Assembly: GCA_041661745.1 (NCBI GenBank)
Contig: JBAZTR010000002.1
Coordinates: forward strand, 68,368-132,367
Origin: Patescibacteria group bacterium
GTDB taxonomy: Bacteria > Patescibacteriota > Patescibacteriia > UBA9934 > GWF2-40-263
DNA: 64,000 bases
Direction of reading: 5' to 3'
Shown: piece after piece, positions 4,523-55,455 of the stretch
Position numbering within the stretch: position 1 is the first letter of the stretch
Layout: every line of letters starts with the position of its first letter
Position numbers and translations under genes: made by a program
Notes under the pieces: model-generated
What the model was told of the DNA's origin: nothing
The model's database searches: none
The model's input: only the letters and a program-made list of their open reading frames with translations

Positions 4523-5830
4523 CTATTCTTCAACTCTTTTAATATTCGCTCCCAGCCCTTTCAGCTTTTCTTCCAAACGTTCGTAACCGCGATCAAGATG
4601 TTCGATACCAGTTAAGACCGACTCACCTTCGGCCACTAAGGCGGCTAAGACCAAAGCCAAGCCAGCGCGAATGTCGGGCACAACAATTGGCGCGGCTTTT
4701 AACGGTGTTGGTCCGTTAATAACCGCAGCGTGTTTGTAGTTCATGCCTTTGAAGCGGCAATTTATTTCGCCGAGACAATTTGGGAACAAGGTGATGTCAG
4801 CTCCCATAATATTCAGAGTCTCGGTATATCCGAAACGTTCTTCATAAACTGTTTCATGAACAACACTGGTTCCTTGAGCTTGTGTTAAAACGACAGTGAA
4901 CGGCTGTTGCCAATCGGTCATAAAACCGGGATGAGTATCGGTTTCAAGTTCAATGCCGTGTAAACCATTATCGCGTTTAAACAAAATGCCATCTTCCCTG
5001 ACTTCGTAAGTGCCACCAATTTTTCTGACAGCGTTTAAAAAAGTTATCAAGTGATCGTGTACCGCGCCTTTGATAAAAATTTCACCATTGGTGGCCATGG
5101 CCATACAAGCGTAACTGACGGCTTCGTTTCGATCGGGCATAACCCGAGCCTGACAACCATTTAGTTTCTCAACACCGATAATTTCAAATTGACGACCGAC
5201 CCCGACCTCAATTATGGCCCCCATTTTTTGGAGCATCTTAACCAGTTCCATAATCTCTGGTTCGATAGCGGCGTTTCTAATAACCGTGCGCCCCTTGGCC
5301 AGAACACCGGCCAAAATAACTGTCTCGGTCGCGCCAACCGAAGGAAACGGCAGTTCAATTAATGTGCCTTTCAGACGACCTTCGACCGAGGCACGATAAC
5401 CATCAGGAAGCTCCTCGATTTTCGCGCCCATTTTCTTTAAGGCATCAAGGTGAAAGTTAACCGGCCGCGGCCCAATTTTATCGCCACCGGCCACCGGCAC
5501 AAAAGCTTCGCCAACGCGATGAAGCAACGGAGCGATAGATAAAACAGAGATACGATTTTGGCGTGACAAACCGGTCACGGACGGCGAGGAAATTTTAGCC
5601 GCGTTAACCTCGACTGTATGTTCGGCCACCCATGTGGTGGTGGCACCAATGGCGTGAAGAATTTCTTCAGTAATCTGGACCTCGGCATGACGCGGCAGAT
5701 TTTCCAAAATCACCGGCTCATCGGTTAAAAGAGCGGCGATCATCATTTTAGACGAAGCGTTTTTTGCTCCAGAAAGTTCCACGGTTCCCTTTAAAGGTTT
5801 ACCGCCAATAATATGATAAGTTGATGTCAT
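4523..5830 (-). CDS. murA: UDP-N-acetylglucosamine 1-carboxyvinyltransferase
   Basis: MTSTYHIIGGKPLKGTVELSGAKNA... has full-length similarity to MurA. Start at internal Met, 13 codons into the track ORF. Confidence 0.9.
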   Translation of the reverse strand: MTSTYHIIGGKPLKGTVELSGAKNASSKMMIAALLTDEPVILENLPRHAEVQITEEILHAIGATTTWVAEHTVEVNAAKISSPSVTGLSRQNRISVLSIAPLLHRVGEAFVPVAGGDKIGPRPVNFHLDALKKMGAKIEELPDGYRASVEGRLKGTLIELPFPSVGATETVILAGVLAKGRTVIRNAAIEPEIMELVKMLQKMGAIIEVGVGRQFEIIGVEKLNGCQARVMPDRNEAVSYACMAMATNGEIFIKGAVHDHLITFLNAVRKIGGTYEVREDGILFKRDNGLHGIELETDTHPGFMTDWQQPFTVVLTQAQGTSVVHETVYEERFGYTETLNIMGADITLFPNCLGEINCRFKGMNYKHAAVINGPTPLKAAPIVVPDIRAGLALVLAALVAEGESVLTGIEHLDRGYERLEEKLKGLGANIKRVEE

Positions 5831-5868
5831 AGGAAGTAGCTTGTAGGAGGTAGCTTGTAGATTAGACA
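5826..5868. repeat. CTAC-type leader repeat upstream of murA (single arm)
   Basis: Plus strand ggaagtagcttgtaggaggtagcttgtagattagacac. Reverse complement ctacaagctacctcctacaagctacttcc directly precedes the murA ATG. Confidence 0.5.
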
Positions 5869-8306: not shown

Positions 8307-8458
8307 ATTTTAGCTTGTAGCTTGTAGCTTGTAGGAGGTAGGTTTTTCCGGCTCCAACAGACAACAAGCCGATTAATTTTCTGCAAAAAGATTAACATTT
8401 TATTTTTAAAAAAGCAATGATTCCTGCCTACAAGCTACTTCCTACAAACTACAAGCTA
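8307..8458. repeat. Long imperfect inverted repeat: GTAG-type arm (8310-8342) and CTAC-type arm (8421-8458) around a ~90 nt spacer, forming the ndk leader
   Basis: Left arm tagcttgtagcttgtagcttgtaggaggtagg. Reverse complement of right arm is tagcttgtagtttgtaggaagtagcttgtaggcagg. On the mRNA strand the CTAC-rich arm ends immediately before the ndk ATG. Confidence 0.6.
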
Positions 8459-9388
8459 AAACGGCAATGGCCGACTCTCCACTATCGGTTCCCCACCGGT
8501 CGAGGTAATTAAAACATCGCCATCGAGATCAGTGCGGAAAATTTTGATGCCACGCGTCTGCAAACGTTCAAGAGTGGCCGGATGTGGATGGCCGTAATCG
8601 TTATCAGTGCCAACCGAAATAATGGCGTAGCGCGGCTTAGCAACTTCAAGGAAACTCCCCGAAGTGGAAGTGACACTGCCATGGTGCGCGACCTTCAAAA
8701 CATCAACCGGTTCGGCCAGGTCGTCAAAAATTTCGTCTTCCTCATCAATCGGAGCATCGCCGGTTAAAAGAATCGAGGTCTCACCATAAGTTAAAAGAAG
8801 AACAACCGAGGCTTCGTTTAAGTTGTCGAGTTTTTTGTTTTGTAAATTGGTGTCTGGGGCGATAATTTCTAACCTCACCCCTGCGCCCCTCTCCTTCGCA
8901 AGGAGAGGGGGAGTTCCCTCTGACACCAAGTCCATCACTGCTCCTTGTCCCTCGGTCAACTCGCGAACACTGTCTTGTAGGTCGTCATAACCAAGCACAC
9001 CCGTCTCATAAATTGTCCCGACATTGTAACGAGACAAAACCTCGGGCAAACCACCTTCGTGATCGGCGTGAGGATGAGTGATAATAACAGCATCAATGGA
9101 ACGGTCCCACGGCAACATGACCTGACCAAGTTTGGTTAAAACCGAACTGTCGGCTCCGGCATCCACCAGAATTTGTTCGCCCTCGGGTGTTTCGATGAAA
9201 ATTGCATCGGCTTGCCCCACGTCAAAAATCCAAACCTTCAATTCTTTATCAAGTTGCATTGTATAAAACATCTGCCAGGTTAAAGCTAAAACCATAGCCA
9301 AGGTCATAAGACCAAGGCCAACCAACTTTTTCCGTTGCGCGGAAAATTTTATTGGTCGAGCGCGAGTTTGGATCGGCGAGCGAGCCAT
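8456..9388 (-). CDS. comEC: ComEC C-terminal part: single TM helix plus metallo-beta-lactamase domain (separate ORF or frameshifted continuation of comEC)
   Basis: MARSPIQTRARPIKF...TM...VWIFDVGQADAIFIE...HPHADHEGG...VAHHGS is the ComEC/Rec2 MBL domain. It overlaps the upstream ComEC N-terminal ORF by about 37 nt in a different frame. It also contains in-frame palindromic element copy A. Confidence 0.7.
   Translation of the reverse strand: MARSPIQTRARPIKFSAQRKKLVGLGLMTLAMVLALTWQMFYTMQLDKELKVWIFDVGQADAIFIETPEGEQILVDAGADSSVLTKLGQVMLPWDRSIDAVIITHPHADHEGGLPEVLSRYNVGTIYETGVLGYDDLQDSVRELTEGQGAVMDLVSEGTPPLLAKERGAGVRLEIIAPDTNLQNKKLDNLNEASVVLLLTYGETSILLTGDAPIDEEDEIFDDLAEPVDVLKVAHHGSVTSTSGSFLEVAKPRYAIISVGTDNDYGHPHPATLERLQTRGIKIFRTDLDGDVLITSTGGEPIVESRPLPF
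8870..8911. repeat. GC-rich palindromic element copy A, in-frame inside the comEC beta-lactamase domain (encodes ...TPPLLAKERGAGVRL...)
   Basis: TAACCTCACCCCtgcgCCCCTCTCCTTcgcAAGGAGAGGGGg. Same core as copies B and C. Antisense to the host gene and read in a different frame from copy B. Confidence 0.75.
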
Positions 9389-10686
9389 AATAAAAAGATA
9401 AAGACAACAAAAGCCAAAACTGCTGACAAAATTTTTGGTAAAACAATTGAAGCAAAAAAAACTGAACCAAACCAAGTCACTAAAAGCAAAACAAACGAAC
9501 TCAAAGCCGAAGCCGGAACAGCGACAATCGCCCCGAGCGTAACGGAAAGCCAACCAACACCGAGAGCTACCCCACCAAGAAGCATGAGATATGGAATCCA
9601 CGGCAAAATAAGGAGGTTAACTAAAGGCGCGATAAGTGAAGTTGAACCAAAGTGCCAGAGCATTATCGGCAGGGTGGCCGAAATGGCGGCAAGCGAAGCA
9701 GCACACGATTCACGCAAACCAAAAACTTCAGGAATAAAATTTACTCGCTCGCCAAACCAGTTACCTAGTAGCATCAAACCGGCTGTCGCCCCAAAAGAAA
9801 GTTGAAAACCAACATCGGTAATCAAATGCGGATTAAAAATCATCATGAGGAAAGCCGAAAGAAGAAGGAGATTGCCGGCATGCGGGGTGCGACCAAGCCA
9901 GGTGCCGAGCATAACCGTCGAGGCCATAATGCCAGCGCGAATAACCGGCGGCGTCGCCCCGGCCAAAAAGATATAGAGAATAACCAGTAAGCCGGAAACA
10001 ATAATCGCTCGTCGTCGACCAAGGGTACTCCGCATGAGAAGAACTAAAAGAAGCTGAGAAAAAATAGAAACGTTATAACCCGAAGCGGCCATGACATGTG
10101 AAAGTCCGGTGTGTGAAAAATCACCCTTCATGTCTTGGCTTAACCCCTGACTGCCGCCAAAAAGAATTCCGCTCATAAACGCGGCATGTGGCTCGGGGAA
10201 AATTTTTCCCAGCCGTTCAATCATAGCCAGACGAAGTGATAAAAGAGCATCGCTAATATTCCACGCAGCCTTCCCTTGCACCACTAACTCCTCTGGGCGA
10301 TAACACACGGCGTAAACTCCACGACTTTCAAGATAAGCGGCGTAGTCAAAATCATTAAACGGTTCGGGCACGACCAGTTCACAACGAAATTCCAAAATAT
10401 CGCCAGTAGAAAAGTTCTGCCACTTAGGTAAACGTGCCAAAATTTTTCCGTTCTGTTCTTCGCCGCCAACCTGAATATTTTTTAGGGTCACTTCTTGCGC
10501 CGAATCGCGCTGAACAATCTCCCCGGCAATTGTACCGGTCATGACCGTTTCTTTATTAACAAAATCACGAACCGTGGGGCTCGTGATTTCATCAAAAAAT
10601 AATGCTTTAGCCGACAAACCAACTATCAAAACCAGTAGGATGACAAAGAGGGATCGCGACGGTGACTTATCGAGTCCCCACACCAT
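9349..10686 (-). CDS. comEC: ComEC N-terminal part: DUF4131-like region plus polytopic competence channel domain
   Basis: About 10 predicted TM helices. Region ...GLSHVMAASGYNVSI... is typical of the ComEC competence domain. Its start overlaps the ugd stop by 20 nt. Confidence 0.75.
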   Translation of the reverse strand: MVWGLDKSPSRSLFVILLVLIVGLSAKALFFDEITSPTVRDFVNKETVMTGTIAGEIVQRDSAQEVTLKNIQVGGEEQNGKILARLPKWQNFSTGDILEFRCELVVPEPFNDFDYAAYLESRGVYAVCYRPEELVVQGKAAWNISDALLSLRLAMIERLGKIFPEPHAAFMSGILFGGSQGLSQDMKGDFSHTGLSHVMAASGYNVSIFSQLLLVLLMRSTLGRRRAIIVSGLLVILYIFLAGATPPVIRAGIMASTVMLGTWLGRTPHAGNLLLLSAFLMMIFNPHLITDVGFQLSFGATAGLMLLGNWFGERVNFIPEVFGLRESCAASLAAISATLPIMLWHFGSTSLIAPLVNLLILPWIPYLMLLGGVALGVGWLSVTLGAIVAVPASALSSFVLLLVTWFGSVFFASIVLPKILSAVLAFVVFIFLLWLARRSKLALDQ

Positions 10687-14050: not shown

Positions 14051-16930
14051 TTACTTGATGACGATATTCATTAACTTGCCCGGGACAAAAATCGTTTTAA
14101 CGATTTCTTTTCCGTCTAAATATTTCTTTACGTTGTCTTCAGTTTCCGCCGCCGCTTTCACCTCAGCTTCGCCCGCTTCGGGCGAAACCACGATCGTCCC
14201 GCGAAGTTTTCCATTAACCTGGACGGCAATCGTCACCTCGTCCTCTTTCACAAGTTCGGGATCAAACTCCGGCCACGATCCTTCTTCGACAAAACCTTTA
14301 CCACCAAACGAAGAATAAATTTCGTTGGCCAAGTGCGGAGCAAAAGGACACAAGACACGAACGAATTTTAAAAGATTGTCTTTAGTGATTCCTTTCTCTT
14401 CGTAAACCACATTCACAAAAGTCATCATTTGCGCCACGGCTGTGTTGAAACGAAAACTGTCGATATCCTCGGAAACTTTTTTAATTGTTTGATGAAGGGC
14501 CCGGGTAACTTTCTTAGTTTCTTCTTTAATTATAATTTGTTCCAACCCGGAAACTCGTTCCAAAAAGCGTCTGGTCCCGACCAAACCATTGGTACTCCAC
14601 ACGGCCGGTTGATTAAACGGCCCCATAAACATTTCATAAACCCGCAGAGCATCGGCTCCGTAATCGTTTACCATGTCGTCGGGATTAATTACATTACCCC
14701 AGCGCTTCGACATTTTGCGACCATCTTCGGCCAGAATCAAACCAACGTTTTGTAAACGAGTAAAAGGTTCCTCAACGCTAACCGCGCCAATATCAAAAAG
14801 AAACTTGTGCCAAAACCGCGCATAGATAAGGTGACGGGTGGCATGCTCGGCTCCACCAACATACAAATCAACCGGCGACCAATATTTTTCTTTTTTAGCA
14901 TCAACCAAAGCTGTGTCATTTTTAGGATCCATGTACCGCAAATAATACCAACAACTGCCAGCCCATTGCGGCATGGTGTTGGTTTCACGTTTGGCCGGGC
15001 CGCCACAGTTAGGACAAGTTGTGTTAACCCACTCGTCAATGTTGGCCAGCGGCGATTCGCCAGTGCCTGTTGGTTCGTAGTGTTCAACTTGTGGAAGTTC
15101 AAGCGGTAGTTGATCTTCCGGAAGGGCGACGACTCCACACTTGGCACAATGCACAAGCGGAATTGGCTCGCCCCAATAACGCTGGCGAGAAAAAACCCAA
15201 TCACGAAGTTTATATTGCGTTTGGCATTGGCCCAAACCCTTTTCTTCCAACCAAGAAATCATGTCAGCTTTGGCTTTCCAGGTCGGCAGGCCATCCAAAA
15301 AGTCGGAATTAATGGCTACGCCTTCTTCAACAAAAACCGGTGCACCTTCCTTGTAGGCGTACCAAATCATCGGGCCATCGACAACGTTAACGGTTTTTTC
15401 TACTTCACTTTCATCAAACCAAACCGGCTCGTGATTTTTTAATTCTTCGGCCGGAATTTCATCATGATCATCGTTTACTAAATCCAAAACCGCCACACGA
15501 ATTTGCGCATATCGATTTTGACCTTTGTGCGCAGCAAAATATTCGGTGTGAACTTCGAAACCGACATCTTTAACAAATTTAAAATTTTTATAACCGGTTT
15601 CCTCGGTCGCTTCACGGATAGCCGCGGTAGATAAATCTTCGTCACCTTCAATACCACCGATAATAAAGGTGTGGAGGTGCGAACGGCTAGGTGTAATATT
15701 AGAAAACCAATTAAGCAGCAAAACTTTTCCGTCTTTCGGGTTACGAATAATGACATGAACGTTTTTGCGACGGCTTTCCGGAACCCCTTCGTGCGGCGGA
15801 TTGGCTGGATCAATGAAATGGGGAGCGACTACTTGTTTAATTGGCAAATTATATTTTGTGGCAAAGGCAAAATCGCGTTCATCGTGTGCTGGCACGGCCA
15901 TAATGGCGCCGGTGCCGTAGCCCATCAAAACATAATCAGCCACCCAAATCGGAATTTTTTCATTGTTGGCCGGATTGATGGCATAAGCGCCGGTGAAGAC
16001 GCCAGTTTTTTCTTTGGTATCATCGCCGCGTTCAATATCTGTTTTAGCTTTCGTGGCGGCAAGGTAATTTTCAACCTCAACTCGACATTCACTAGTGGTA
16101 ATTTCCGAAACAAGCGAATGTTCAGGAGCCAAAACCATGTAAGTCGCGCCAAATAAAGTGTCGGGACGGGTGGTGAAAACTCTAACCTCACCCCTTCCCT
16201 CTCCTTCGTAAGGAGAGGGGGAAACGATTTTGAAAGTAACTTCCGCCCCCTCGCTCTTACCAATCCACTCCCGCTGCATTTGCTTAATCGAGTCCGGCCA
16301 TTCGGTCAGCTTATCGAGATCGGCAAGCAGACGATCGGCATAATCGGTAATTTTCAAAACCCACTGGCGCATTGGTTTTTGTTCAACCACACTGCCGCAG
16401 CGTTCACATTTACCATCGTCCAAATCTTCATTGGCCAAACCGGTTTGGCAACTCGGGCACCAATTGATTGGTTCGAAAGATTCATAAGCCAAACCTTTTT
16501 TAAACATCTGAAGAAACGCCCATTGTGTCCATTTATAATATTTTGGATCAGTTGTGTTTACTTCCCTGTCCCAATCATAAGTAAAACCAAGAATGGAAAG
16601 CTGTTTTTTAAAAACTTCAATATTCTGCTTAGTAGCCACGGCCGGATGGACTTTATTTTTAATGGCAAAATTTTCCGCCGGCAAGCCAAAAGCATCCCAA
16701 CCCATGGGGTGAAGAACAGAAAAACCCTGCATCATTTTAGTGCGAGCTACAACATCGGTGGCAATGTAGCCTTTAGGGTGACCAACGTGAAGCCCGGCGC
16801 CGGAAGGATATGGAAACATGTCGAGGGCATAAAACTTTTTCTTGCCAGAATCTTCATTAGTTTTAAAAATGCCGGACTTGGCCCATTTTTCCTGCCACTT
16901 TTTCTCAATTTGTTTGTGATCGTAAGGCAT
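14051..16930 (-). CDS. leuS: Leucyl-tRNA synthetase carrying an inserted Nudix hydrolase domain (about residues 385-530) and an in-frame palindromic element (residues 237-251)
   Basis: HVGH motif (GAGLHVGHPKGY), KMSKR motif (GRKMSKRWGN) and CP1 editing region (TTRPDT). A Nudix box GGIEGDEDLSTAAIREATEETGY sits between AVPAHDERDFAFATKY and the leucyl-specific region YKLRDWVFSRQRYWGEPIP. Confidence 0.9.
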   Translation of the reverse strand: MPYDHKQIEKKWQEKWAKSGIFKTNEDSGKKKFYALDMFPYPSGAGLHVGHPKGYIATDVVARTKMMQGFSVLHPMGWDAFGLPAENFAIKNKVHPAVATKQNIEVFKKQLSILGFTYDWDREVNTTDPKYYKWTQWAFLQMFKKGLAYESFEPINWCPSCQTGLANEDLDDGKCERCGSVVEQKPMRQWVLKITDYADRLLADLDKLTEWPDSIKQMQREWIGKSEGAEVTFKIVSPSPYEGEGRGEVRVFTTRPDTLFGATYMVLAPEHSLVSEITTSECRVEVENYLAATKAKTDIERGDDTKEKTGVFTGAYAINPANNEKIPIWVADYVLMGYGTGAIMAVPAHDERDFAFATKYNLPIKQVVAPHFIDPANPPHEGVPESRRKNVHVIIRNPKDGKVLLLNWFSNITPSRSHLHTFIIGGIEGDEDLSTAAIREATEETGYKNFKFVKDVGFEVHTEYFAAHKGQNRYAQIRVAVLDLVNDDHDEIPAEELKNHEPVWFDESEVEKTVNVVDGPMIWYAYKEGAPVFVEEGVAINSDFLDGLPTWKAKADMISWLEEKGLGQCQTQYKLRDWVFSRQRYWGEPIPLVHCAKCGVVALPEDQLPLELPQVEHYEPTGTGESPLANIDEWVNTTCPNCGGPAKRETNTMPQWAGSCWYYLRYMDPKNDTALVDAKKEKYWSPVDLYVGGAEHATRHLIYARFWHKFLFDIGAVSVEEPFTRLQNVGLILAEDGRKMSKRWGNVINPDDMVNDYGADALRVYEMFMGPFNQPAVWSTNGLVGTRRFLERVSGLEQIIIKEETKKVTRALHQTIKKVSEDIDSFRFNTAVAQMMTFVNVVYEEKGITKDNLLKFVRVLCPFAPHLANEIYSSFGGKGFVEEGSWPEFDPELVKEDEVTIAVQVNGKLRGTIVVSPEAGEAEVKAAAETEDNVKKYLDGKEIVKTIFVPGKLMNIVIK
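15340..15780 (-). other. Nudix hydrolase domain inserted within the leuS coding sequence (approximate bounds)
   Basis: Nudix signature GX5EX7REUXEEXGU is satisfied by GGIEGDEDLSTAAIREATEETGY. About 150 aa are extra relative to E. coli LeuS at this position. Confidence 0.6.
16183..16221. repeat. GC-rich palindromic element copy B, in-frame inside leuS (encodes ...SPSPYEGEGRGEVRV...)
   Basis: TAACCTCACCCCttCCCTCTCCTTcgtAAGGAGAGGGGg. Base composition contrasts sharply with the surrounding leuS sequence. Confidence 0.8.
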
Positions 16931-18405: not shown

Positions 18406-18562
18406 AGTGCAAAAAATTATTTTTTTCCTAGGACGAATATAGATTAATACTTTGGTAAGTGGAGGGCAACAAAAAAAGTGTATAACCATTGACAACAAGG
18501 AAATTTTATGTTAAAAATAACCGCCTCTTTGAGTCCACCCCGCAAATTCTCCCGGAGGAGAA

Positions 18563-18811
18563 ATGCTAGGAAAGTTCCTTGGCAACGAATTCGCCACGCC
18601 GGTCACGGCAGTCACTCTCATGGTTGCGGCCATGCTCATCTACGCCGGAATGGCCTGCCGACTGCACGTTGGCACGCCGGCCTTCATCTGGTTGGCCCTG
18701 GTGTTGGCCTTCCTGGTGGAGGCCAACCTCGAGTGCCTCCCGGCCCGGTGGATGACGAAGGGTTTTGCCGTGGCCCTCGCCGGCGCCGCGGCCGTCTGCG
18801 TCATCTTCTGA
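18563..18811 (+). CDS. Small GC-rich membrane protein with 2 predicted TM helices; hypothetical
   Basis: GGAGGAG Shine-Dalgarno 6 nt upstream of the ATG. Two hydrophobic helices. Overlapping longer ORFs on both strands are R/G/P-rich noise. Immediately followed by palindromic element copy F plus a T-run. Confidence 0.35.
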   Translation: MLGKFLGNEFATPVTAVTLMVAAMLIYAGMACRLHVGTPAFIWLALVLAFLVEANLECLPARWMTKGFAVALAGAAAVCVIF

Positions 18812-18813
18812 GT

Positions 18814-18860
18814 CTTCCTCCCCAACCCGCCCCTCCTCAACTCTCGAGGAGCGGTTTTTT
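18814..18860 (+). repeat. GC-rich palindromic element copy F, acting as terminator stem after the small membrane ORF
   Basis: CTTCCTCCCCAACCCGCCCCTCCTCaactctcGAGGAGCGG + TTTTTTT. Aligns with copy C sense sequence CCTCACCCCCCAACCCCTCTCCTTacgAAGGAGAGGGG. Confidence 0.6.
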
Positions 18861-18892: not shown

Positions 18893-18894
18893 TT

Positions 18895-18950
18895 CACCTC
18901 TCCCCTTCTCCCCTCTCCTTCGTAAGGAGAGGGGTTGGGGGGTGAGGTTA
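18895..18950 (-). repeat. GC-rich palindromic element copy C at the 3' end of trxB; its TAA terminus is the trxB stop codon
   Basis: Minus-strand reading TAACCTCACCCCccaaCCCCTCTCCTTacgAAGGAGAGGGGagaaggggagaggtga. Copies C and F are tail-to-tail around two convergent terminators. Confidence 0.75.
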
Positions 18951-20430: not shown

Positions 20431-20482
20431 CAGGGGTTCTCCCTCTCTCGTCGCCACGACGGGGGAGGGTTGGGGTGGGGGC
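20431..20482 (-). repeat. Divergent copy E of the GC-rich palindromic element family, intergenic between trxA and the histidine phosphatase gene
   Basis: Minus-strand reading gcCCCCACCCCAACCCTCCCCCgtcgtggcgacgAGAGAGGGagaacccc. It has the same architecture, with compensatory changes that keep a stem (CCCTCCCCCGTCG / CGACGAGAGAGGG). Confidence 0.5.
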
Positions 20483-42360: not shown

Positions 42361-43395
42361 CTAAGCGAGACGGAGATTAGGATCAGCCTCAAACTTAAGA
42401 GGATCGATAAATTCTTTTCGCTCGGCACGCCACGCTCCAGCCGCGGCAATCATGGCCGCGTTGTCGCCAGTAAATTCAAGTGATGGAAAAAATACCGGCA
42501 AGGGCGACAATTTATTTTTCATTTCTTCGCGAAGTAACAAATTAGCCGAAACACCGCCAGAAACGATAACTGATTTAGCATTGGTCTTTGCAACAGCTTT
42601 AATTGTTTTTTCAACCAAAACATCGACCACAGCTTGCTCAAAGGAGGCACAGACGTCTTCGATTCCCCCTCCCACATTGGGGGAGGGGTTAGGGGAGAGG
42701 GATTCGGGATGAGTCTTAAGATAAACCGCTACCGCTGTTTTTAATCCGGAAAAACTAAAATCAAAATCTTTGCTGTCTAACATTGGCCGGGGAAAATCTA
42801 TTGCCCCTCTTTTCCCTTCTAACGCATGTTTAGAAATTTGCGGCCCGCCCGGATATGGCAAATCAAGAAGTTTAGCTACTTTGTCGAAAGCTTCACCGGC
42901 TGCATCATCACGTGTGCGCCCCAAAAGTTCATACTCACAAAAATTTTTCATGAGTAAAAGTTCGGTGTGTCCGCCGGAAACCAATAAACAGACGGCGGGA
43001 AATTCCGGCGGGGTCTCGACCGCAGCAATAAAAGCGCTGGCAATGTGTCCCTCCATATGGTTCACGGCCACCAATGGTTTTTTCCAAGCAAAGGCTAAAG
43101 TTTTAGCTGCTTCAACCCCAATCCTGAGGGCTGGAACCAAGCCCGGGCCAGCCGTAACAGCAATCGCGTCGATATCGGCTCCGTCGTGTGACACACCAGC
43201 CGCTTCAAGCAAGGGAAAAACCACATTAACGTGACAGCGAGCCGCCACCTCGGGTACCACTCCGCCATACTCGGCATGTTTGGCCGCCTGTGAAGCAATC
43301 AAACTTTTCTCAACAACAAAACTCCGGAGGCCATCGCTCGAAACGATGGCGACCGAAGTTTCATCACAACTTGTTTCAAGTCCTAATAAACGCAC
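42361..43395 (-). CDS. tsaD: tRNA N6-adenosine threonylcarbamoyltransferase TsaD (Kae1/Gcp family) carrying in-frame palindromic element copy D
   Basis: MRLLGLETSCDETSVAIV...HMEGH metal-binding motif. Inserted peptide ...SLSPNPSPNVGGGIED... at residues about 232-247. Confidence 0.9.
   Translation of the reverse strand: MRLLGLETSCDETSVAIVSSDGLRSFVVEKSLIASQAAKHAEYGGVVPEVAARCHVNVVFPLLEAAGVSHDGADIDAIAVTAGPGLVPALRIGVEAAKTLAFAWKKPLVAVNHMEGHIASAFIAAVETPPEFPAVCLLVSGGHTELLLMKNFCEYELLGRTRDDAAGEAFDKVAKLLDLPYPGGPQISKHALEGKRGAIDFPRPMLDSKDFDFSFSGLKTAVAVYLKTHPESLSPNPSPNVGGGIEDVCASFEQAVVDVLVEKTIKAVAKTNAKSVIVSGGVSANLLLREEMKNKLSPLPVFFPSLEFTGDNAAMIAAAGAWRAERKEFIDPLKFEADPNLRLA
42662..42706. repeat. GC-rich palindromic element copy D (divergent), in-frame inside tsaD
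   Basis: attCCCCCTCCCacattGGGGGAGGGGttaggggagaggg. Sense to tsaD it reads TCCCTCTCCCCTAACCCCTCCCCCaatgtGGGAGGGGG. It encodes a P/S-rich then G-rich peptide, like copy B. Confidence 0.6.
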
Positions 43396-51984: not shown

Positions 51985-52010
51985 TAAAAAAGCCCGCACG
52001 GATGTGCGAG
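51985..52010 (-). terminator. Intrinsic terminator after the caspase-like gene
   Basis: Minus-strand reading: hairpin CGCACatccGTGCG followed by GGCTTTTTT. Confidence 0.5.
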
Positions 52011-52020
52011 CGAGGCGGCT

Positions 52021-53070
52021 TCAGAAGCGGAAGACGAGGATGCCAGTGCCGGTGGCCAGCAGAACACCGCCGACAGCCAAGGTGCTGATCTGCGAGGCGC
52101 GAACCGCCTCGTAGGCCTTCTGGTCGCGCGGCTCCAGGGGCTCCATGAGGTAGGCGTCGCCGATCCCGTAGAGGGAGGCGCTGGCGACCCCAAAGAACAG
52201 TCCGGAGCCGATGACCGCCCAGCCGGCGTTCGGGTGCCCCTTCTTCTTGCCGGGGACGACCGGGGCCGGCGGCAGTACCGCGACTGCCCGAACGGGCGGC
52301 ATCGCGATGACATCGGTCGGATCGTAGTTGCCGGTCACGTCGACGTGTGCCTTGTCTTCGGTGGCCTCGCCGACCCTCTTGTCGACGAAACGCTGGAACT
52401 CGGCCACGGTGATTTCGCCGTTGCCGGAGGCGTCGGCCAGACCGTCCAGGCCTTCGGCTACCACTTGACCGAAACCTGCCCACTCCGAACCAGTGTTGGC
52501 CGGAAGGTAGGACACGGCCAGGATGTTCGGAGCCTGGTCGGACCAGTGGCGCGACTGCGGACCAACCAAGGCCACGTTGCCGAGCGAACCCTGACGCATG
52601 GTCTGGGTCACGACGATGACCTGAACCCCGGGCTTGATGGACCCCATGAGCCCATCGACCCTGACGCCGCTGGCCATGACATCACTTGGGTTGACGTCCC
52701 AGGGCAACAGGTAGGGGTCATCGAAGTCGCCCCCGACGGCCAGCATGGAGATGTAGAGGAAGAGCGAGTCGCCGGCCTCCAGGTTGATGGCGAAGTCGTT
52801 CGAGAAGAGACTCTCGATGTCGACCTTGTTGGCCTTGCTGCTCACCACGAGGTTGACCTCGTAGCCGGAAGCCTTCAGGGCCAGACCCAGCTGGCGAGTC
52901 TGCTCCAGCCCAGCGTCGAGCGACCGCGGCAAGGTGGTGTCCTGGTAGTTGTCGACAGCCAGGACGACCGCGATCTTCTTCGGATCCCCATCCTCGGCCC
53001 CCGCCACTGCAGGGCAAAGGAGGGAGAACAGGAAAGCCATGGCAACGGCGAAGGCCAGACGATTGAACAT
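52021..53070 (-). CDS. Secreted/membrane-anchored caspase-like (peptidase C14-like) domain protein with EF-hand calcium-binding loop and C-terminal TM helices; GC-rich island gene
   Basis: Signal peptide MFNRLAFAVAMAFLFSLLCPAVAGA. Caspase-like block KIAVVLAVDNYQD...ASGYEV...GDSLFLYIS...VQVIVVTQTMRQG. EF-hand DASGNGEITVAEF. Two C-terminal hydrophobic helices. Very GC-rich by eye. Confidence 0.4.
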   Translation of the reverse strand: MFNRLAFAVAMAFLFSLLCPAVAGAEDGDPKKIAVVLAVDNYQDTTLPRSLDAGLEQTRQLGLALKASGYEVNLVVSSKANKVDIESLFSNDFAINLEAGDSLFLYISMLAVGGDFDDPYLLPWDVNPSDVMASGVRVDGLMGSIKPGVQVIVVTQTMRQGSLGNVALVGPQSRHWSDQAPNILAVSYLPANTGSEWAGFGQVVAEGLDGLADASGNGEITVAEFQRFVDKRVGEATEDKAHVDVTGNYDPTDVIAMPPVRAVAVLPPAPVVPGKKKGHPNAGWAVIGSGLFFGVASASLYGIGDAYLMEPLEPRDQKAYEAVRASQISTLAVGGVLLATGTGILVFRF

Positions 53071-53166
53071 TTCTGAACTCCCACAGGTGGAAAATTGGGT
53101 GAAACCGACGCCTAATTCTTATCATAAAATCGAAAAAAGTCAAGGATGTGTTATAATATTTCCGAT

Positions 53167-55455
53167 ATGTATCTCGCCAAACTGGAACTTCAGGGTTTCA
53201 AAACCTTTGCCGGCAAAACCACCTTACTTTTCCCCGGACAAAAAGATGGTGGCTATTCCGTAACCACTATTGTTGGCCCCAACGGCTCGGGTAAATCAAA
53301 CCTGGCCGATGCTATTCGTTGGGCCCTTGGTGAACAAAGTCTCAAACTCCTCCGCGGAAAAAATTCCGAGGATGTTATTTTTTCCGGCTCGGCTAATAAG
53401 TCTCGCTCGGGTTTTGCCGAGGTTAACCTGACTTTTGACAACAGCGACCATGTCGTACCAGTTGATTTTTCCGAAGTGGTAATTACTCGCAAACTTTATC
53501 GCGACGGTGAATCGGAATATTTGGTCAATGGCAGCACCGCCCGCCTCTCCGACATTCGACTTATGCTGGCCGAGGCTAATGTTGGTCAACAATCGTACTC
53601 GGTTATTGGCCAAGGCATGGTTGATCACATTTTGGTGGCCACGCCCGAAGAGCGCAAAGCTTTTTTTGACGACGCCATGGGGGTTAAACCATTACAATTA
53701 AAACGACATGACGCGATTTTAAAATTAAAACGCACGGCGGAAAATCTTTCTGAAGTAAAAATGCTTTTAATGGAAATCGAGCCACGTTTGAAGAGCTTAA
53801 AACGCCAAGCTAATCGTTTAGAAAAACGGGCCATTATCGAAACCGAGCTAAAAGATCTGCGGCAGCGTTATTACAGCTCGCTCTGGTGGTCATTACACGA
53901 TCAATCGGTCTCGGTTCGTGACAAACACGACAAAATGGAAGGCGCTGTTGGACGTGTGATCGAACGGGTAAAAGATTTGGAAACAAAAGTTTCGACCAAA
54001 GAGGCCGAGGAACGCGGTAAAGAAAAAACTAATGCCGGACTTTTGGCTCTGCAAAAAGAATATCAGGAAACGCAACGCGAGCGGGCCCGTCTTCGCGATG
54101 AGGAGTTCGTGGTTGAACGTCAAATCGAATTAACCAAAGTAAAAGCCGAGACCACTTGGGCCCCACTGCCCCTTTCTAAAATTATCGAGGAAGTGGAAAA
54201 CATCAAGGTCTCGCAAAAAGGTTTGGTAGCGGCGTTACGCGCGGCCAAATCAATGGATGATGTTAAAAAAATCGCCGATGAAGCGGAAACAGTTTTTGAT
54301 CGCTCCAGTCTATTAGTTAGTCGCTTACAAAAACCAACGCCGATTGAAGCTAAACCAGATCCGGCTTTGGTGGCCAAACGAGAAAAAATTAAAATCGAAC
54401 GTTTAGGTATCGAAAACAAACTGGTTGAGCTGGAAAAATCCATTAACACTTCGGCCAGCCAAGAAAAAACCGATCGCACGGAATTGTTTGCCATGCACCG
54501 CGAGCTTCGACAAGCCGAGGAAGAACGTCATCACCTCGAGGCCGACTGGCATGAAACCCAAATTGAATTGGCTCGGTTGGAAGAACGCGAAAAAAATCTT
54601 GATCGCGAAATCCAAGAGGAAATGGGGGCTGAGGCCATGACTTCAAAAAGTAATCGCCCGACCGGACAAATAAATACCGATGAATTATACCCGGAGATTC
54701 AACGTTTACGTTATCAACTGGAACTCATTGGCGGGATTGATCCGGAAACTTTAAAAGAATATGAAAGTACCAATGAGCGCTTCACCTTTCTTTCCGCTCA
54801 AACCGAAGATTTGGAAAAAGCCATTAGGGACACTGAAAAAGTTATTGATGAATTGGACGAAAAAATTAAAGAACAGTCCGAAGAAGCCTTTAAAAAAATA
54901 AACAAGGAGTTTTCTAAATTCTTTAAAATGCTTTTTGGTGGCGGATCGTGCGAATTGGTTAAACTGACGGTCGAGGATTTGGCCCCGGAAGAAAGCGAAG
55001 TAAGTTTGGAACGTGCTCTAAATGACACAGCCGAAACCGAACAGATTAAAGAAGAACGACCAATTTTTGTCGAAAAGAAAGATCGGGTCATCGGGGTTGA
55101 TATTTACGCCACCCCGCCAGGCAAAAAATTAAAATCACTAAACCTCCTTTCCGGCGGCGAACGGGCCCTGACCTCGATTGCCTTGGTCTCGGCCATCATG
55201 GCCACCAACCCGGCCCCGTTCGTAGTTCTTGATGAAGTCGATGCCGCGCTTGATGAAGCCAACACTGTCCGCTTTGCTTCTATTCTCGATGAGCTGGCTA
55301 AACTAACACAATTTATTGTCATCACCCACAACCGTGCCACTATGGAAAAAGCCGATGTTCTTTACGGCGTTACTATGGGTGAGGAAGGTACCAGTAAAGT
55401 TCTCTCGGTCCGTTTGGAAAATGTGGCTGGCGGAAATGGAACGGCAAGACGATAA
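53167..55455 (+). CDS. smc: SMC-family chromosome segregation ATPase, unusually short (about 760 aa)
   Basis: N-terminal Walker A GPNGSGKSN and RGKNSEDVIFSG, long coiled coils, C-terminal signature LSGGERALTSIAL and Walker B VLDEVDAALD. Confidence 0.7.
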   Translation: MYLAKLELQGFKTFAGKTTLLFPGQKDGGYSVTTIVGPNGSGKSNLADAIRWALGEQSLKLLRGKNSEDVIFSGSANKSRSGFAEVNLTFDNSDHVVPVDFSEVVITRKLYRDGESEYLVNGSTARLSDIRLMLAEANVGQQSYSVIGQGMVDHILVATPEERKAFFDDAMGVKPLQLKRHDAILKLKRTAENLSEVKMLLMEIEPRLKSLKRQANRLEKRAIIETELKDLRQRYYSSLWWSLHDQSVSVRDKHDKMEGAVGRVIERVKDLETKVSTKEAEERGKEKTNAGLLALQKEYQETQRERARLRDEEFVVERQIELTKVKAETTWAPLPLSKIIEEVENIKVSQKGLVAALRAAKSMDDVKKIADEAETVFDRSSLLVSRLQKPTPIEAKPDPALVAKREKIKIERLGIENKLVELEKSINTSASQEKTDRTELFAMHRELRQAEEERHHLEADWHETQIELARLEEREKNLDREIQEEMGAEAMTSKSNRPTGQINTDELYPEIQRLRYQLELIGGIDPETLKEYESTNERFTFLSAQTEDLEKAIRDTEKVIDELDEKIKEQSEEAFKKINKEFSKFFKMLFGGGSCELVKLTVEDLAPEESEVSLERALNDTAETEQIKEERPIFVEKKDRVIGVDIYATPPGKKLKSLNLLSGGERALTSIALVSAIMATNPAPFVVLDEVDAALDEANTVRFASILDELAKLTQFIVITHNRATMEKADVLYGVTMGEEGTSKVLSVRLENVAGGNGTARR

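What the first reader, a model, noticed from the sequence alone, without database searches (positions are those of the whole stretch)
16183..16221. Family of GC-rich palindromic elements inserted in-frame into essential genes (RPE-like)
At least six copies share the same short element, with core TAACCTCACCCC-(2-4 nt)-CCCTCTCCTT-NNN-AAGGAGAGGGG (a 10-bp stem).

In-frame copies inside conserved genes:
- B in leuS, at 16183-16221.
- A in the comEC beta-lactamase domain, at 8870-8911.
- D in tsaD, at 42662-42706.

Copies at gene ends:
- C at 18895-18950.
- F at 18814-18860.
- E at 20431-20482.

The in-frame copies are translated without breaking the host frame. The same DNA is read in different frames and orientations: PSPYEGEGRGEV in LeuS, TPPLLAKERGAGVRL in ComEC, SLSPNPSPNVGGGIE in TsaD. 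That behaviour is the hallmark of Rickettsia palindromic elements. The elements are strongly GC-rich against an AT-moderate background. Divergent copies keep the stem through compensatory changes, which implies selection on the hairpin.

I am not aware of such protein-invading palindromic repeats being described for a CPR/Patescibacteria-like genome, so this may be a new selfish-repeat family.
Basis: seen in the sequence. Interest (0 to 1): 0.85.

Follow-up and report, generated by a model that had tools for sequence, protein, structure and literature searches.

The report
Triplex-motif repeats inside essential genes
The short GC-rich repeats are real and sit in frame inside LeuS, ComEC and TsaD of a Patescibacteria genome, but they belong to a long-known family found in many phyla (E. 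coli BoxC, the 'intrastrand triplex motif'), and here they prove to be linked to a small DUF559 nuclease gene that may explain how such repeats spread.

Summary
All six copies exist. A, B and C are near-identical (0 expected by chance). A, B and D are read in frame in the ComEC MBL domain, LeuS and TsaD.

They are not plain palindromes and not a new CPR family. Each is a three-block unit: a C-rich stem, a G-rich stem, and a mirror G-rich arm. This is the architecture of E. coli BoxC / PIT / 'TM-ECO' intrastrand-triplex repeats (Holder 2015). The same composite occurs in at least 120 stretches from more than 10 phyla. Stem and arm covary as triplex rules predict (88% against 15% in a swap control).

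Close relatives show empty, solo and decayed states at the same sites.

New lead: at the exact LeuS site, relatives carry TM–DUF559–TM in frame. DUF559 is a nuclease domain related to EDxHD homing endonucleases. In 80 independent metagenomic DUF559 loci, 56 of 72 have a TM within 200 bp downstream and 43 of 70 upstream (about 0.03 expected). E. coli ycjD also sits beside a BoxC.

Best reading: these are solo or non-autonomous derivatives of a DUF559-associated selfish cassette that survive only in tolerant protein loops. The causal role of DUF559 is inferred, not shown.

The parts
16183..16221 (-). Copy B. Triplex-motif (TM) unit: C-stem CCCTCTCCTT, loop ACG, G1 AAGGAGAGGG, linker, G2 GGGGTGAGGTT. 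It reads 5'-3' on the minus (coding) strand, in frame in leuS, giving SPSPYEGEGRGEVR at aa 237-250.
   Evidence: n=10, 0/0 mismatches. The site is empty in L122/P0002 and P0005, holds a solo copy in L123/P0008, and holds TM-DUF559-TM in L124/P0003.
8870..8911 (-). Copy A. TM unit in frame in the ComEC metallo-beta-lactamase-domain ORF, giving PPLLAKERGAGVRL.
   Evidence: n=11, 0/0 mismatches. Orthologous copies in L124 (a different variant), L122 (long loop) and L123 (internally deleted).
18894..18950 (.). Copy C. Full palindrome: arm, hairpin, arm, so a TM is readable on both strands. Its terminal TTA (18948-18950) is the trxB stop codon on the minus strand.
   Evidence: I1; -20.3 kcal/mol, z -6.1. 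Absent in L123, where trxB and gdh are 4 bp apart.
18814..18856 (-). Copy F. Diverged TM directly after the stop of the small ORF 18563-18811. Its hairpin plus T-run matches a terminator pattern on the + strand.
   Evidence: strict hit 18815-18854; terminator-like 18833-18851.
20441..20482 (+). Copy E. Diverged TM with a 13-bp stem that fills the 56-bp trx / histidine-phosphatase spacer.
   Evidence: relaxed settings only. Orthologous copy in L123; AT-rich empty spacer in L122.
42662..42706 (+). Copy D. Diverged TM (CCCCTCCC / GGGGGAGGGG / GGGGAGAGGG) read on the opposite strand, in frame in tsaD, giving SLSPNPSPNVGGG.
   Evidence: strict, 1/1 mismatches; basal loop 18 aa against 29 here; 11-aa gap against 6NAK; coil between helices, lower pLDDT.
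14051..16930 (-). leuS, host gene of copy B. It also carries a NUDIX domain insert.
8456..9601 (-). ComEC C-terminal metallo-beta-lactamase ORF, host of copy A. Probable true start at 9388.
42361..43395 (-). tsaD, host gene of copy D.

Best explanation
**What the elements are (shown).**
- The six elements are copies of the G/C-rich intrastrand-triplex repeat. This repeat is known in E. coli as BoxC / PIT / TM-ECO and is dispersed across many bacterial phyla.
- Each unit is a pyrimidine stem, a purine stem, and a second purine arm that mirrors the stem. On single-stranded DNA it can fold into a hairpin with a third strand (G*G-C, A*A-T and T*A-T triads).
- The window carries a register-shifted variant: CCCCTCTCCTT / AAGGAGAGGGG / GGGGTGAGGTT.
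- Copies are gained, lost and eroded quickly between close relatives. Copies within one genome share that genome's own variant.

**Link to DUF559 (shown).** Inverted TM units bracket small DUF559 (Vsr-like, EDxHD homing-endonuclease-related) genes. This is seen in Patescibacteria, Bacteroidota, Alphaproteobacteria and many metagenomic loci. E. coli ycjD has a TM only downstream, plus a degenerate one overlapping its stop codon. At the very LeuS site of copy B, relatives carry TM–DUF559–TM in frame.

**Origin of the window copies (inferred).**
- They are solo or non-autonomous derivatives of such cassettes.
- Recombination or slippage between the two flanking hairpins would delete the nuclease gene and leave arm-hairpin-arm (copy C).
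- Further loss would leave hairpin plus one arm (A, B, D).

**How they spread (inferred).**
- New copies would arise by repair or recombination after nuclease action on the folded repeat. This is the same logic as REP with RAYT, or as homing.

**Why copies survive in genes (inferred).**
- In gene-dense CPR genomes, the copies that persist are those that keep the reading frame, contain no stop codon, and land in variable surface loops.
- There they encode Pro/Ser/Gly/Glu-rich linkers, with no evidence of benefit to the host protein.
For: **Architecture and membership.**
- Detector hits with 0 mismatches over 10-11 triads for A, B and C, and 0 hits in shuffles.
- The published TM-ECO sequences have the same three blocks.
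- Across 323 Py/Pu hairpins with a G-rich arm, 88.2% have a perfect mirror arm, against 15.5% (maximum 21.4%) when arms are swapped among different stems.

**Distribution.** At least 120 stretches from more than 10 phyla, plus 64 viral-contig stretches.

**Insertion and turnover.**
- The LeuS site is empty, solo or composite within relatives of 80-84% identity.
- Site E is present in L123 and empty in L122. Sites C and F are absent in L123.
- The TsaD loop is 18 aa in 29 homologues and expanded with TM-like peptides in many CPR lineages.
- Alignments to solved structures show gaps at the elements. The TsaD insert is modelled as coil with lower pLDDT.
- The orthologous ComEC copy differs between the window and L124 by a parallel change in all three blocks.

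**Link to DUF559.**
- All 6 DUF559 hits in the TM-selected loci are bracketed by inverted TMs.
- Reciprocally, 80 DUF559 loci were chosen by peptide patterns inside the domain only. A TM lies within 200 bp upstream in 43 of 70, downstream in 56 of 72, and on both sides in 36. Background is 0.12 per kb, about 0.03 per flank.
- The Bacteroidota cassette in L013/L125 carries the same TM variant as the window.
- E. coli ycjD lies 168 bp from TM-ECO #9, and its stop codon overlaps a degenerate TM.
- The DUF559 profile matches PDB 3HRL (9e-35) and the homing endonuclease I-Bth0305I, 3R3P (3.4e-6).
- Family-invariant residues are kept in the LeuS-embedded copies.

**Generality in CPR.** 9 of 21 TM sites lie inside long ORFs. 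Pfam confirms these hosts are real genes: UvrD, LigA, Dus, FemAB and others.
Against: - No DUF559 gene lies in the 64-kb window, in L122 or in L123. No DUF559 remnant lies between copies F and C.
- Most TM copies everywhere are solo. About 6 of 138 pattern matches had a DUF559 neighbour.
- Two opposite bracket orientations occur, so there is no single 'transposon' architecture.
- Three loci of a Chloroflexi-type DUF559 subfamily have only weak TM-like hairpins upstream and none downstream.
- About 38% of E. coli genomes lack the ycjD block yet still carry some TMs. The copy-number difference in a 60-genome sample is modest and confounded by phylogeny.
- The LeuS DUF559 inserts are no more similar to each other than their host genes are, so there is no sign of recent homing.
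- No DUF559 was found in 64 TM-bearing viral stretches.
- No target-site duplication could be defined.
- DUF559 nuclease activity on TM DNA has never been tested. Holder et al. could not detect triplexes in vivo.
Confidence: 0.6

Rival explanations
1. One reading: a previously undescribed, CPR-specific family of RPE-like palindromic selfish repeats.
For: In-frame copies in LeuS, ComEC and TsaD. The hairpin is kept through compensatory change. In-frame copies are common in other CPR genomes.
Against: The same composite motif occurs in more than 10 phyla. It matches the published BoxC / PIT / TM-ECO class. The outer arm is a mirror block, not part of a palindrome. The size (36-57 nt) and host do not fit RPE, which is 105-146 bp and specific to Rickettsia.
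Confidence: 0.04
2. TM repeats spread by a mechanism unrelated to DUF559. Candidates are template switching or slippage at the folded structure, or a trans-acting transposase. On this view DUF559 genes are separate selfish genes that preferentially land in, or are retained between, TM copies, for example because TMs are their cleavage targets or safe harbours.
For: Most TMs are solo. There is no DUF559 in the window or in viral TM loci. E. coli strains without ycjD retain TMs. Two bracket orientations exist, and ~150-bp TM-spacer-TM units flank the gene in L144. Copies A-C end in TA/TAA. Holder et al. link TMs to local instability without any mobile-element association.
Against: The DUF559–TM association is very tight in distance: 3-40 bp downstream and 23-60 bp upstream in most loci. 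It holds across phyla. The composite and the solo copy occupy the same LeuS site. The two flanks of a cassette carry the same TM variant.
Confidence: 0.28
3. TMs are host-beneficial DNA or RNA elements, such as terminators, recombination or replication signals, or regulators. They would be kept by selection for that role and arise convergently, with the in-gene copies being functional linkers.
For: Copy F matches a terminator pattern behind a small ORF. Copies C and E sit exactly at gene ends. Structure-preserving covariation implies selection on the fold.
Against: Presence and absence vary among relatives of 80-84% identity. The peptides are read in different frames and orientations and are not conserved. 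There is no Rfam match. PIT elements showed no promoter or terminator activity in E. coli, and purine-motif triplexes do not form in RNA. Near-identical sequence across phyla is hard to reach by convergence.
Confidence: 0.07
4. The segments are native low-complexity Pro/Gly loops that evolved in place, and the DNA resemblance is coincidental or an assembly artefact.
For: The host loops vary in length in all lineages.
Against: The DNA is identical over 23-41 nt between unrelated genes, with 0 expected by chance. Orthologous copies appear in independent assemblies (L123, L124). Empty sites exist in close relatives.
Confidence: 0.01

Closest known systems
BoxC / PIT elements / TM-ECO G/C-rich intrastrand triplex motif (Bergler 1992; Hoyne & Maher 2000, 2002; Holder et al. 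2015, PMC4666352)
   Same: It has the same three-block design: C-stem, loop, G-stem, short linker, mirror G-arm with a T opposite the stem's A. Block sequences are nearly the same (GGGAGAGGG/GGGTGAGGG in E. coli, GGAGAGGGG/GGGGTGAGG here). It also shares the multi-copy occurrence, the palindromic double form, the strong within-genome conservation, and the rapid local deletion and rearrangement between relatives.
   Different: The register is shifted by one base and the stems are 10-11 nt, so the strict TM-ECO regular expression does not match. The host is a Patescibacteria genome. Three of six copies are inside coding sequence, whereas TM-ECO is 'always intergenic' in E. coli K-12. The link to DUF559 genes is not mentioned in that literature.
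Rickettsia palindromic elements (RPE; Ogata et al. 2000; summarised in PMC2229807)
   Same: It is a small palindromic repeat found both between genes and fused in frame into conserved protein genes. It is apparently neutral and sits in variable loops.
   Different: RPEs are 105-146 bp, are restricted to Rickettsia, and form long simple stem-loops. No triplex (mirror) block or associated nuclease gene is described for them. The elements here are 36-57 nt and occur in many phyla.
REP / REPIN elements with their RAYT (TnpA-REP) gene
   Same: Short structured repeats are dispersed in many copies, while a small nuclease-type gene (single-copy in E. coli K-12) is bracketed by inverted copies of the repeat. 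Singlets and inverted doublets both occur.
   Different: There is no GTAG/CGTC tag (PMC3733652 title and abstract). The bracketed gene is a PD-(D/E)XK/Vsr-like DUF559, not a HUH Y1 transposase. REP families are specific to a species or genus, whereas this repeat is nearly identical across phyla.
EDxHD homing endonucleases (I-Bth0305I; PMC3239194, PMC3384342, PMC2677866) and inteins
   Same: The DUF559 profile matches I-Bth0305I (3R3P, E 3.4e-6). The nuclease ORF sits in frame in conserved genes: LeuS, and an HsdM-like ORF in L129. The same LeuS site is occupied in several lineages.
   Different: There is no intron or intein splicing domain around the LeuS insert (Pfam lists). The domain apparently stays in the mature protein, joined by TM-encoded linkers. 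There is no sign of recent homing.

Membership tests
BoxC / PIT / TM-ECO intrastrand triplex motif | Three consecutive blocks on one strand: a C-rich stem, loop 1 (3-6 nt), a complementary G-rich stem, loop 2 (~3 nt), and a second G-rich block. | tested here: met
   A (n=11, loops 3/4), B (n=10, 3/3), C on both strands (n=11, 3/4), D (n=10, 3/3), F (n=9, 7/6). E is found only with relaxed settings.
BoxC / PIT / TM-ECO intrastrand triplex motif | The third block obeys purine-motif triad rules (G*G-C, A*A-T, T*A-T) antiparallel to the purine stem, with at most 1 mismatch. | tested here: met
   0 mismatches in A, B and C(+), 1 in D, F and C(-), and 0 hits in 20 shuffles. Family-wide covariation is 88% against 15% in the swap control.
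BoxC / PIT / TM-ECO intrastrand triplex motif | Exact published TM-ECO pattern CCCTCNCCC N3-6 GGGNGAGGG N3 GGGNGAGGG. | tested here: not met
   0 matches in the window. It matches E. coli L121 and two other loci. The window copies are a register-shifted variant of the class.
BoxC / PIT / TM-ECO intrastrand triplex motif | Intergenic location (always, in E. coli K-12). | tested here: not met
   A, B and D are inside ORFs. C, E and F are at gene ends.
BoxC / PIT / TM-ECO intrastrand triplex motif | The single strand forms a stable triplex in vitro (CD/NMR). | not testable with these tools
   Only hairpin folding could be computed.
BoxC / PIT / TM-ECO intrastrand triplex motif | Raised local variability (deletion or erosion of the motif) between close relatives. 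| tested here: met
   empty, solo, composite and internally deleted states at orthologous sites.
Rickettsia palindromic elements (RPE) | 105-146 bp long stem-loop repeat, specific to Rickettsia. | tested here: not met
   The elements are 36-57 nt. The host is Patescibacteria. The definition is from PMC2229807.
Rickettsia palindromic elements (RPE) | In-frame fusion into conserved protein genes without disrupting them. | tested here: met
Rickettsia palindromic elements (RPE) | Sequence similarity to an RPE family consensus. | not tested
REP/RAYT-type system (REPtron) | A nuclease or transposase gene bracketed by inverted copies of the dispersed repeat. | tested here: met
   For DUF559 and TM in related and unrelated genomes. 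Not in the window itself, which has no DUF559.
REP/RAYT-type system (REPtron) | The bracketed gene is a HUH Y1 (IS200/IS605-like) transposase, and the repeat carries a GTAG/CGTC tag. | tested here: not met
   The gene is PF04480/PF18741. No GTAG tag is visible in the TM sequences.
MITE | Terminal inverted repeats plus a target-site duplication, derived from an IS that encodes a transposase. | tested here: inconclusive
   The arms are inverted and A-C end in TA/TAA. No duplication could be defined against the empty sites, and no transposase is associated.
Homing-endonuclease element / intein | The nuclease is homologous to a characterised homing endonuclease family. | tested here: met
   3R3P (I-Bth0305I), E 3.4e-6.
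Homing-endonuclease element / intein | A self-splicing intron or intein context that removes the insert. | tested here: not met
   No intein or Hint domain in the LeuS proteins that carry DUF559 (Pfam lists).
Homing-endonuclease element / intein | Evidence of recent horizontal homing (insert more similar than host gene). | tested here: not met
   insert identity 53-74%, against 56-87% for the host flanks.

The most novel reading that the evidence does not exclude
BoxC/PIT/TM repeats have lacked an explanation since the 1990s. On this reading they are the cis elements (ends, targets or solo remnants) of a widespread selfish system. Its protein partner would be the small DUF559 nuclease (Vsr-like, EDxHD-related; YcjD in E. 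coli), making it a REP/RAYT-like partnership built on a different nuclease fold and on a triplex-forming DNA structure. In gene-dense Patescibacteria the system would invade essential genes such as LeuS, TsaD, ComEC, UvrD and LigA directly in frame, using the repeat-encoded Pro/Gly-rich linkers in place of intein or intron splicing.
Probability: 0.4. Interest if true: 0.85.

Novelty: new variant of a known kind. Interest (0 to 1): 0.68.

Why it matters
The repeat family itself is known, so the 'new selfish-repeat family' claim falls. Three things go beyond what the searchable literature says.

1. **Reach of the family.** Essentially the same ~40-nt triplex-forming unit is present from E. coli to Cyanobacteria, Bacteroidota and Patescibacteria.
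2. **Coding insertions.** In Patescibacteria the unit is commonly embedded in frame in core enzymes, with rapid gain, loss and erosion. This matters for annotation, for alignment and phylogenomics of CPR marker proteins, and for understanding loop evolution.
3. **A candidate protein partner.** The unit is tightly and reciprocally associated with DUF559 nuclease genes, including E. coli ycjD.
   - The origin and spread of BoxC/PIT elements is an old open question.
   - This makes it directly testable in E. coli through YcjD biochemistry on TM DNA and ycjD genetics against TM turnover.
   - It also suggests a biological role for a very large domain of unknown function.

Tried and rejected
- **Rfam, whole window at gathering scores:** only 4 tRNAs, nothing at the elements.
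- **Literature search for CPR, palindromic and in-frame terms:** nothing relevant.
- **RPE membership:** rejected on size and host.
- **DUF559 remnant in the GC-rich 18.5-18.95 kb spacer between F and C:** none in a six-frame hmmsearch at maximum sensitivity. The spacer instead holds a small membrane-like ORF.
- **Metagenome scan with the 9-sequence DUF559 alignment:** It was redone with 3 Bacteroidota-type sequences, so the reciprocal sample is biased to that subfamily.
- **Recent-homing test on the LeuS inserts:** negative.
- **L013 against L125, to define cassette ends:** uninformative, because they are orthologous loci.
- **E. coli ycjD presence against TM copies:** only a modest, confounded difference. 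The ycjD-negative allele is a different island, not a clean empty site.
- **Viral contigs:** TMs are present but no DUF559.
- **Chloroflexi-type DUF559 genes:** only weak TM-like hairpins upstream.
- **First mirror-covariation attempt:** it used a loop-proximal register and was noisy. It was replaced by the stem-base register.
- **ORF-context statistic:** it uses stop-to-stop ORFs and over-calls in high-GC genomes. Only the CPR cases were checked with Pfam.

Full report
**1. The observation**

- All six elements are at the stated coordinates.
- The hairpin core CCCTCTCCTT-NNN-AAGGAGAGGG occurs three times (A 8887-8909, B 16197-16219, C 18911-18933). None occurs in 100 dinucleotide-preserving shuffles.
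- The flanking TAACCTCACCCC is exact at A and B and, in reverse complement, at C.
- The repeat finder groups A, B and C as one family and pairs A with C as inverted repeats (D2 and I1).
- C is a complete 57-nt palindrome with outer arms, an internal loop and an 11-bp inner stem. Its DNA fold is -20.3 kcal/mol, z = -6.1. A and B have the inner hairpin and one arm only (z = -3.4 and -2.8). D, E and F are far more diverged.
- The window is 45.9% GC and the elements are 59-76% GC.
- The host ORFs are LeuS (with editing and NUDIX domains), a ComEC metallo-beta-lactamase-domain ORF, and TsaD.
- The elements are read through in frame as SPSPYEGEGRGEVR, PPLLAKERGAGVRL and PESLSPNPSPNVGGGI. Two orientations and different codon phases are used.
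- Copy C's terminal TTA is the trxB stop codon. E fills the 56-bp trx / His-phosphatase spacer. F follows the stop of a small ORF and matches a terminator pattern.

**2. What the element is**

The hits come from Cyanobacteria, Bacteroidota, Chloroflexota, Armatimonadota, Alpha- and Gammaproteobacteria, Nitrospirota, Verrucomicrobiota, Acidobacteriota, Gemmatimonadota, Planctomycetota and many Patescibacteria lineages. In nearly all of them the arm is followed by the complementary GGAGAGGGG, and often by a second arm, GGGGTGAGG. The family is therefore not CPR-specific.

A full-text search for the sequence words led to Holder et al. 2015 (PMC4666352). That paper describes the E. coli 'BoxC' / 'PIT' / 'TM-ECO' repeat 5'-CCCTCNCCC N3-6 GGGNGAGGG N3 GGGNGAGGG, for example CCCTCTCCCTGTGGGAGAGGGCCGGGGTGAGGGC. 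According to the paper:

- There are 3610 copies in 262 proteobacterial genomes.
- Related G/C-rich motifs are abundant in cyanobacteria.
- The single strand forms a class II purine-motif intrastrand triplex in vitro.
- No triplex was detected in vivo.
- It has no promoter or terminator activity.
- It is always intergenic in K-12.
- No link to mobile elements was found.
- It is associated with local genomic instability.

The window elements have the same three blocks, shifted by one base: CCCCTCTCC(TT) / (AA)GGAGAGGGG / GGGGTGAGG. This explains why the 'outer arm' is neither a copy nor a complement of the stem. It is the stem's mirror image, with a T opposite one of the stem's two A's and an A opposite the other.

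**3. Membership tests**

- I wrote a generic class-II detector. It looks for a C-block, loop 3-9, a purine block, loop 1-6, and a mirror block obeying G*G, A*A and T*A. Block length is 8-11, with at most 1 mismatch in each pairing.
- It returns A, B, C (both strands), D and F in the window, and E with relaxed settings. It returned nothing in 20 block shuffles.
- The literal TM-ECO regular expression does not match the window, so this is a sequence variant of the class.
- To test the third-strand rule without circularity, I collected every perfect Py/Pu hairpin in all fetched DNA that has any G-rich, C-free 8-mer downstream (n = 323). Of these, 88.2% have a perfect 8/8 mirror arm. When arms are swapped between hairpins with different stems the figure is 15.5% (sd 2.0, maximum 21.4%).
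- As the stem changes (GAGAGGGG, GGAGAGGG, AGGAGGGG, AAGGGGGG and others), the arm follows as its mirror.

**4. Insertions or native sequence?**

*LeuS.*
- Among the 120 best homologues (Patescibacteria, Uhrbacteria/Magasanikbacteria-like), the segment between SEGAEV-F-I and VFTTRPDT is short and unrelated in most.
- The closest full-length relatives are empty there: P0002 (84% identity) has NFQISEFSNSQITVF, and P0005 (71%) is similar.
- P0008 shares the same solo element.
- Against T. thermophilus LeuRS (1H3N) the element aligns to a 7-residue gap just before the TTRPDT editing motif.

*TsaD.*
- The loop between FSFSGLKT and ASF(E/Q) is 18 aa in 29 homologues and 29 aa here.
- Many CPR TsaDs carry other TM-like peptides at the same place.
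- T. maritima TsaD (6NAK) aligns with an 11-residue gap exactly at ESLSPNPSPNV.
- An AlphaFold model (pLDDT 93.4) puts residues 234-244 in a coil between two helices. The mean pLDDT of residues 231-240 is 79.

*ComEC.*
- All three syntenic relatives carry a TM-like segment in different states.
- L124 has an intact copy of another variant. L122 has a long-loop form. L123 has an internally deleted remnant.
- Against the solved ComEC domain 9IC4 the net gain is only 2 residues, so loop residues were replaced rather than simply added.

*Other sites.*
- Site E is conserved in L123 and absent from L122. C and F are absent from L123, where trxB and gdh are 4 bp apart.
- Insertion polymorphism among close relatives is thus shown for B, C/F and E.
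- The ComEC copies of the window and L124 differ by a parallel change in all three blocks, and each genome's copies share its own variant. This points to concerted evolution or re-insertion.

**5. Generality in CPR**

- In the TM-selected loci, 9 of 21 TM sites from Patescibacteria lie at least 30 codons inside an ORF of at least 150 aa (55% for random positions).
- The figures are 3 of 47 in Cyanobacteria (56% random) and 27 of 101 in other phyla (75% random).
- Pfam confirms that the CPR hosts are real genes: UvrD, NAD-dependent DNA ligase, Dus, FemAB, an amidohydrolase, DHH and DeoC.
- In-frame TM copies in conserved genes are therefore a general feature of these small genomes, unlike E. 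coli.

**6. The DUF559 lead**

*The composite in LeuS.*
- At the same LeuS site, five homologues (P0003, P0004, P0009, P0010, P0099; 53-84% identity) read HLSPNPSPKGRG – about 110 aa – LPFGEGPGEVIKVFTTRPDT.
- The middle part is a DUF559 (PF04480/PF18741) domain.
- At the DNA level (L124) the left flank is CACCTCTCCCC-CAA-CCCCTCCCC-GAAA-GGGAGGGG, a TM in reverse orientation. The right flank is CCCTCCC-TTTT-GGGGAGGG-CCC-GGGAGAGG, a TM in forward orientation.
- The window's solo copy sits where the right-hand TM sits.

*Forward test.*
- A DUF559 HMM built from these inserts plus E. coli YcjD found DUF559 in six of the fetched loci: five of the 120 TM-selected loci (L013, L095, L102, L106, L120) and L124, the LeuS locus above. 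These are Bacteroidota, Methylobacterium and Patescibacteria.
- In every one the domain is bracketed by inverted TMs.
- L013/L125 carry exactly the window's TM variant: AACCTCACCCC-CAA-CCCCTCTCCTT…AGGAGAGGGG – gene – CCCCCTCTCCTT…AAGGAGAGGGG-CTA-GGGGTGAGGTT.

*Reciprocal test.*
- 80 metagenomic DUF559 loci were retrieved by peptide patterns inside the domain only.
- A strict TM lies within 200 bp upstream in 43 of 70 evaluable loci, downstream in 56 of 72, and on both sides in 36.
- Typical distances are 23-60 bp upstream and 3-40 bp downstream.
- The density in the far flanks is 0.12 per kb, or about 0.03 expected per flank.

*E. coli.*
- The DUF559 gene ycjD (1351407-1351760) lies 168 bp from TM-ECO #9 (1351204-1351239). 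This is the intergenic region next to fabI/envM. From my own recollection, not from any tool result, the paper that first described BoxC reported the envM sequence.
- The ycjD stop codon overlaps a degenerate TM (…NRRSPSP*).

*Relationship to known nucleases.*
- The DUF559 profile matches PDB 3HRL (9e-35) and 3R3P (3.4e-6). 3R3P is I-Bth0305I, the type member of the EDxHD homing endonucleases (PMC3239194, PMC3384342).
- The family-invariant E-x-D-G-x-x-H…D residues are kept in the LeuS-embedded copies.
- I found no paper that links DUF559 or ycjD with BoxC/TM. The library does not cover most subscription journals.

**7. Limits of the DUF559 link**

- Two opposite bracket orientations occur. 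In some loci the arms face outward (L013, L124, L125-129). E. coli ycjD has only a downstream TM, in the orientation of that arrangement. In the majority of the metagenome sample the arms lie next to the gene.
- Some loci show ~150-bp TM-spacer-TM units on both sides of the gene.
- Three loci of a Chloroflexi-type subfamily have only weak TM-like hairpins in a conserved upstream leader.
- No DUF559 is present in the window, L122 or L123, or in 64 TM-bearing viral stretches.
- In E. coli the ycjD block is present in 3375 of 5426 complete genomes. Sampled genomes without it still have TMs, though fewer megablast-detectable copies (mean about 2.6 against 4.2 places, n = 23 and 37). That difference is confounded by phylogroup.
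- The LeuS inserts are no more similar to one another than their hosts are. That cassette is therefore old and vertically inherited with losses, not recently homed.

**8. Mechanism proposed**

*Shown:*
- the three-block, structure-preserving repeat;
- its distribution across phyla;
- its fast turnover;
- its in-frame survival in variable loops;
- the tight TM–DUF559 bracket.

*Inferred:*
- TM–DUF559–TM is the autonomous form. Because the hairpins on the two sides are both direct and inverted repeats of each other, recombination or replication slippage between them removes the gene and leaves arm-hairpin-arm (copy C).
- Further erosion gives hairpin plus one arm (A, B, D). Longer-loop or degraded forms (E, F) are older.
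- New copies arise when the nuclease acts on the folded repeat and the break is repaired from another copy. This is REP/RAYT-like or homing-like.
- In coding DNA, only copies that keep the frame, carry no stop codon and lie in tolerant loops persist.
- For the full palindrome C, three of its six reading frames are fully open. The peptides are rich in Pro, Ser, Gly and Glu.

I put about 0.9 on membership of the BoxC/TM class and on the reality of the TM–DUF559 association. I put about 0.4-0.45 on DUF559 being the agent that spreads TMs.

**9. Verdict**

- Its interpretation is right about behaviour (selfish, in-frame, structure under selection) and wrong about novelty and about the structure.
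- The element is a new sequence variant of a known repeat class, in a new host and a new (coding) context.
- The session's added value is the reciprocal association with DUF559 nuclease genes. It offers a testable answer to how BoxC/PIT repeats arise and spread.

Noticed in passing
window 14051-16930 (-), LeuS aa 387-516: LeuS carries a NUDIX hydrolase domain inserted after the editing domain. Most of the 120 closest CPR LeuS homologues share it. Some carry further inserted domains (alpha/beta-hydrolase, HAD, Ham1, DUF559), giving proteins of up to ~1550 aa.
   Followed up: partly
window 5821-5863, 8308-8351, 8427-8467: A second, unrelated repeat family is built from AGCTTGTAG(G) units (GTAGCTTGTAGGAGGTAGCTTGTAG). 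It lies at gene boundaries, with two inverted copies 84 nt apart between ndk and the ComEC MBL ORF.
   Followed up: no
window 18563-18811 (+): An 82-aa membrane-like ORF of 60% GC sits in the gdh-trxB spacer. It is preceded by a promoter-like site (18489-18518), followed by TM copy F acting as a terminator-like hairpin, and bracketed by F and C. The whole spacer is absent in relative L123, where trxB and gdh are 4 bp apart. The ORF has no Pfam hit.
   Followed up: partly
window 8456-10686 (-): ComEC is encoded as two overlapping ORFs: DUF4131+Competence at 9349-10686 and the metallo-beta-lactamase domain at 8456-9388/9601. The same split is seen in the three syntenic relatives.
   Followed up: partly
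L129 420-3074: In a metagenomic contig, an 884-aa HsdM-like (N6-methylase motif NPPF) ORF contains an in-frame TM-DUF559-TM cassette and a further TM-like peptide downstream. This is a second host gene with the same kind of insertion as LeuS.
   Followed up: partly
L096 833-4228: A Moraniibacteriota UvrD helicase carries both an intein (Pfam Intein_splicing/Hint) and an in-frame TM copy in its N-terminal helicase domain.
   Followed up: no
L270, L276, L277 (about 190 nt upstream of the DUF559 gene at 1501): Chloroflexi-type DUF559 genes (N-terminus MPVKNIIPGQ) share a conserved ~190-nt upstream leader with two TM-like hairpins. They sit next to MazE/PIN, AbiE, restriction-methylase or TIR genes. 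Many members lie on very short contigs, as expected for repeats.
   Followed up: partly
L121 (E. coli K-12 1351040-1351830) and L269: The 3' end of ycjD (ETVLENI...) is duplicated between the gene and TM-ECO #9. In the ~38% of E. coli genomes without ycjD, the region upstream of fabI is a different island (TetR/RND efflux), with a TM-arm remnant (CCCCAACCTCCCCC) near the breakpoint.
   Followed up: partly
L205-L268 (IMG/VR contigs): The TM composite occurs in 64 viral-contig stretches, with up to 10 strict TMs in L253. One stretch (L251) comes from the same sample as the close relative L122. None encodes DUF559.
   Followed up: partly
window 52001-54000: This is the highest-GC stretch of the window (55.8% against a mean of 45.9%), with long overlapping ORFs on both strands. 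It was not examined.
   Followed up: no
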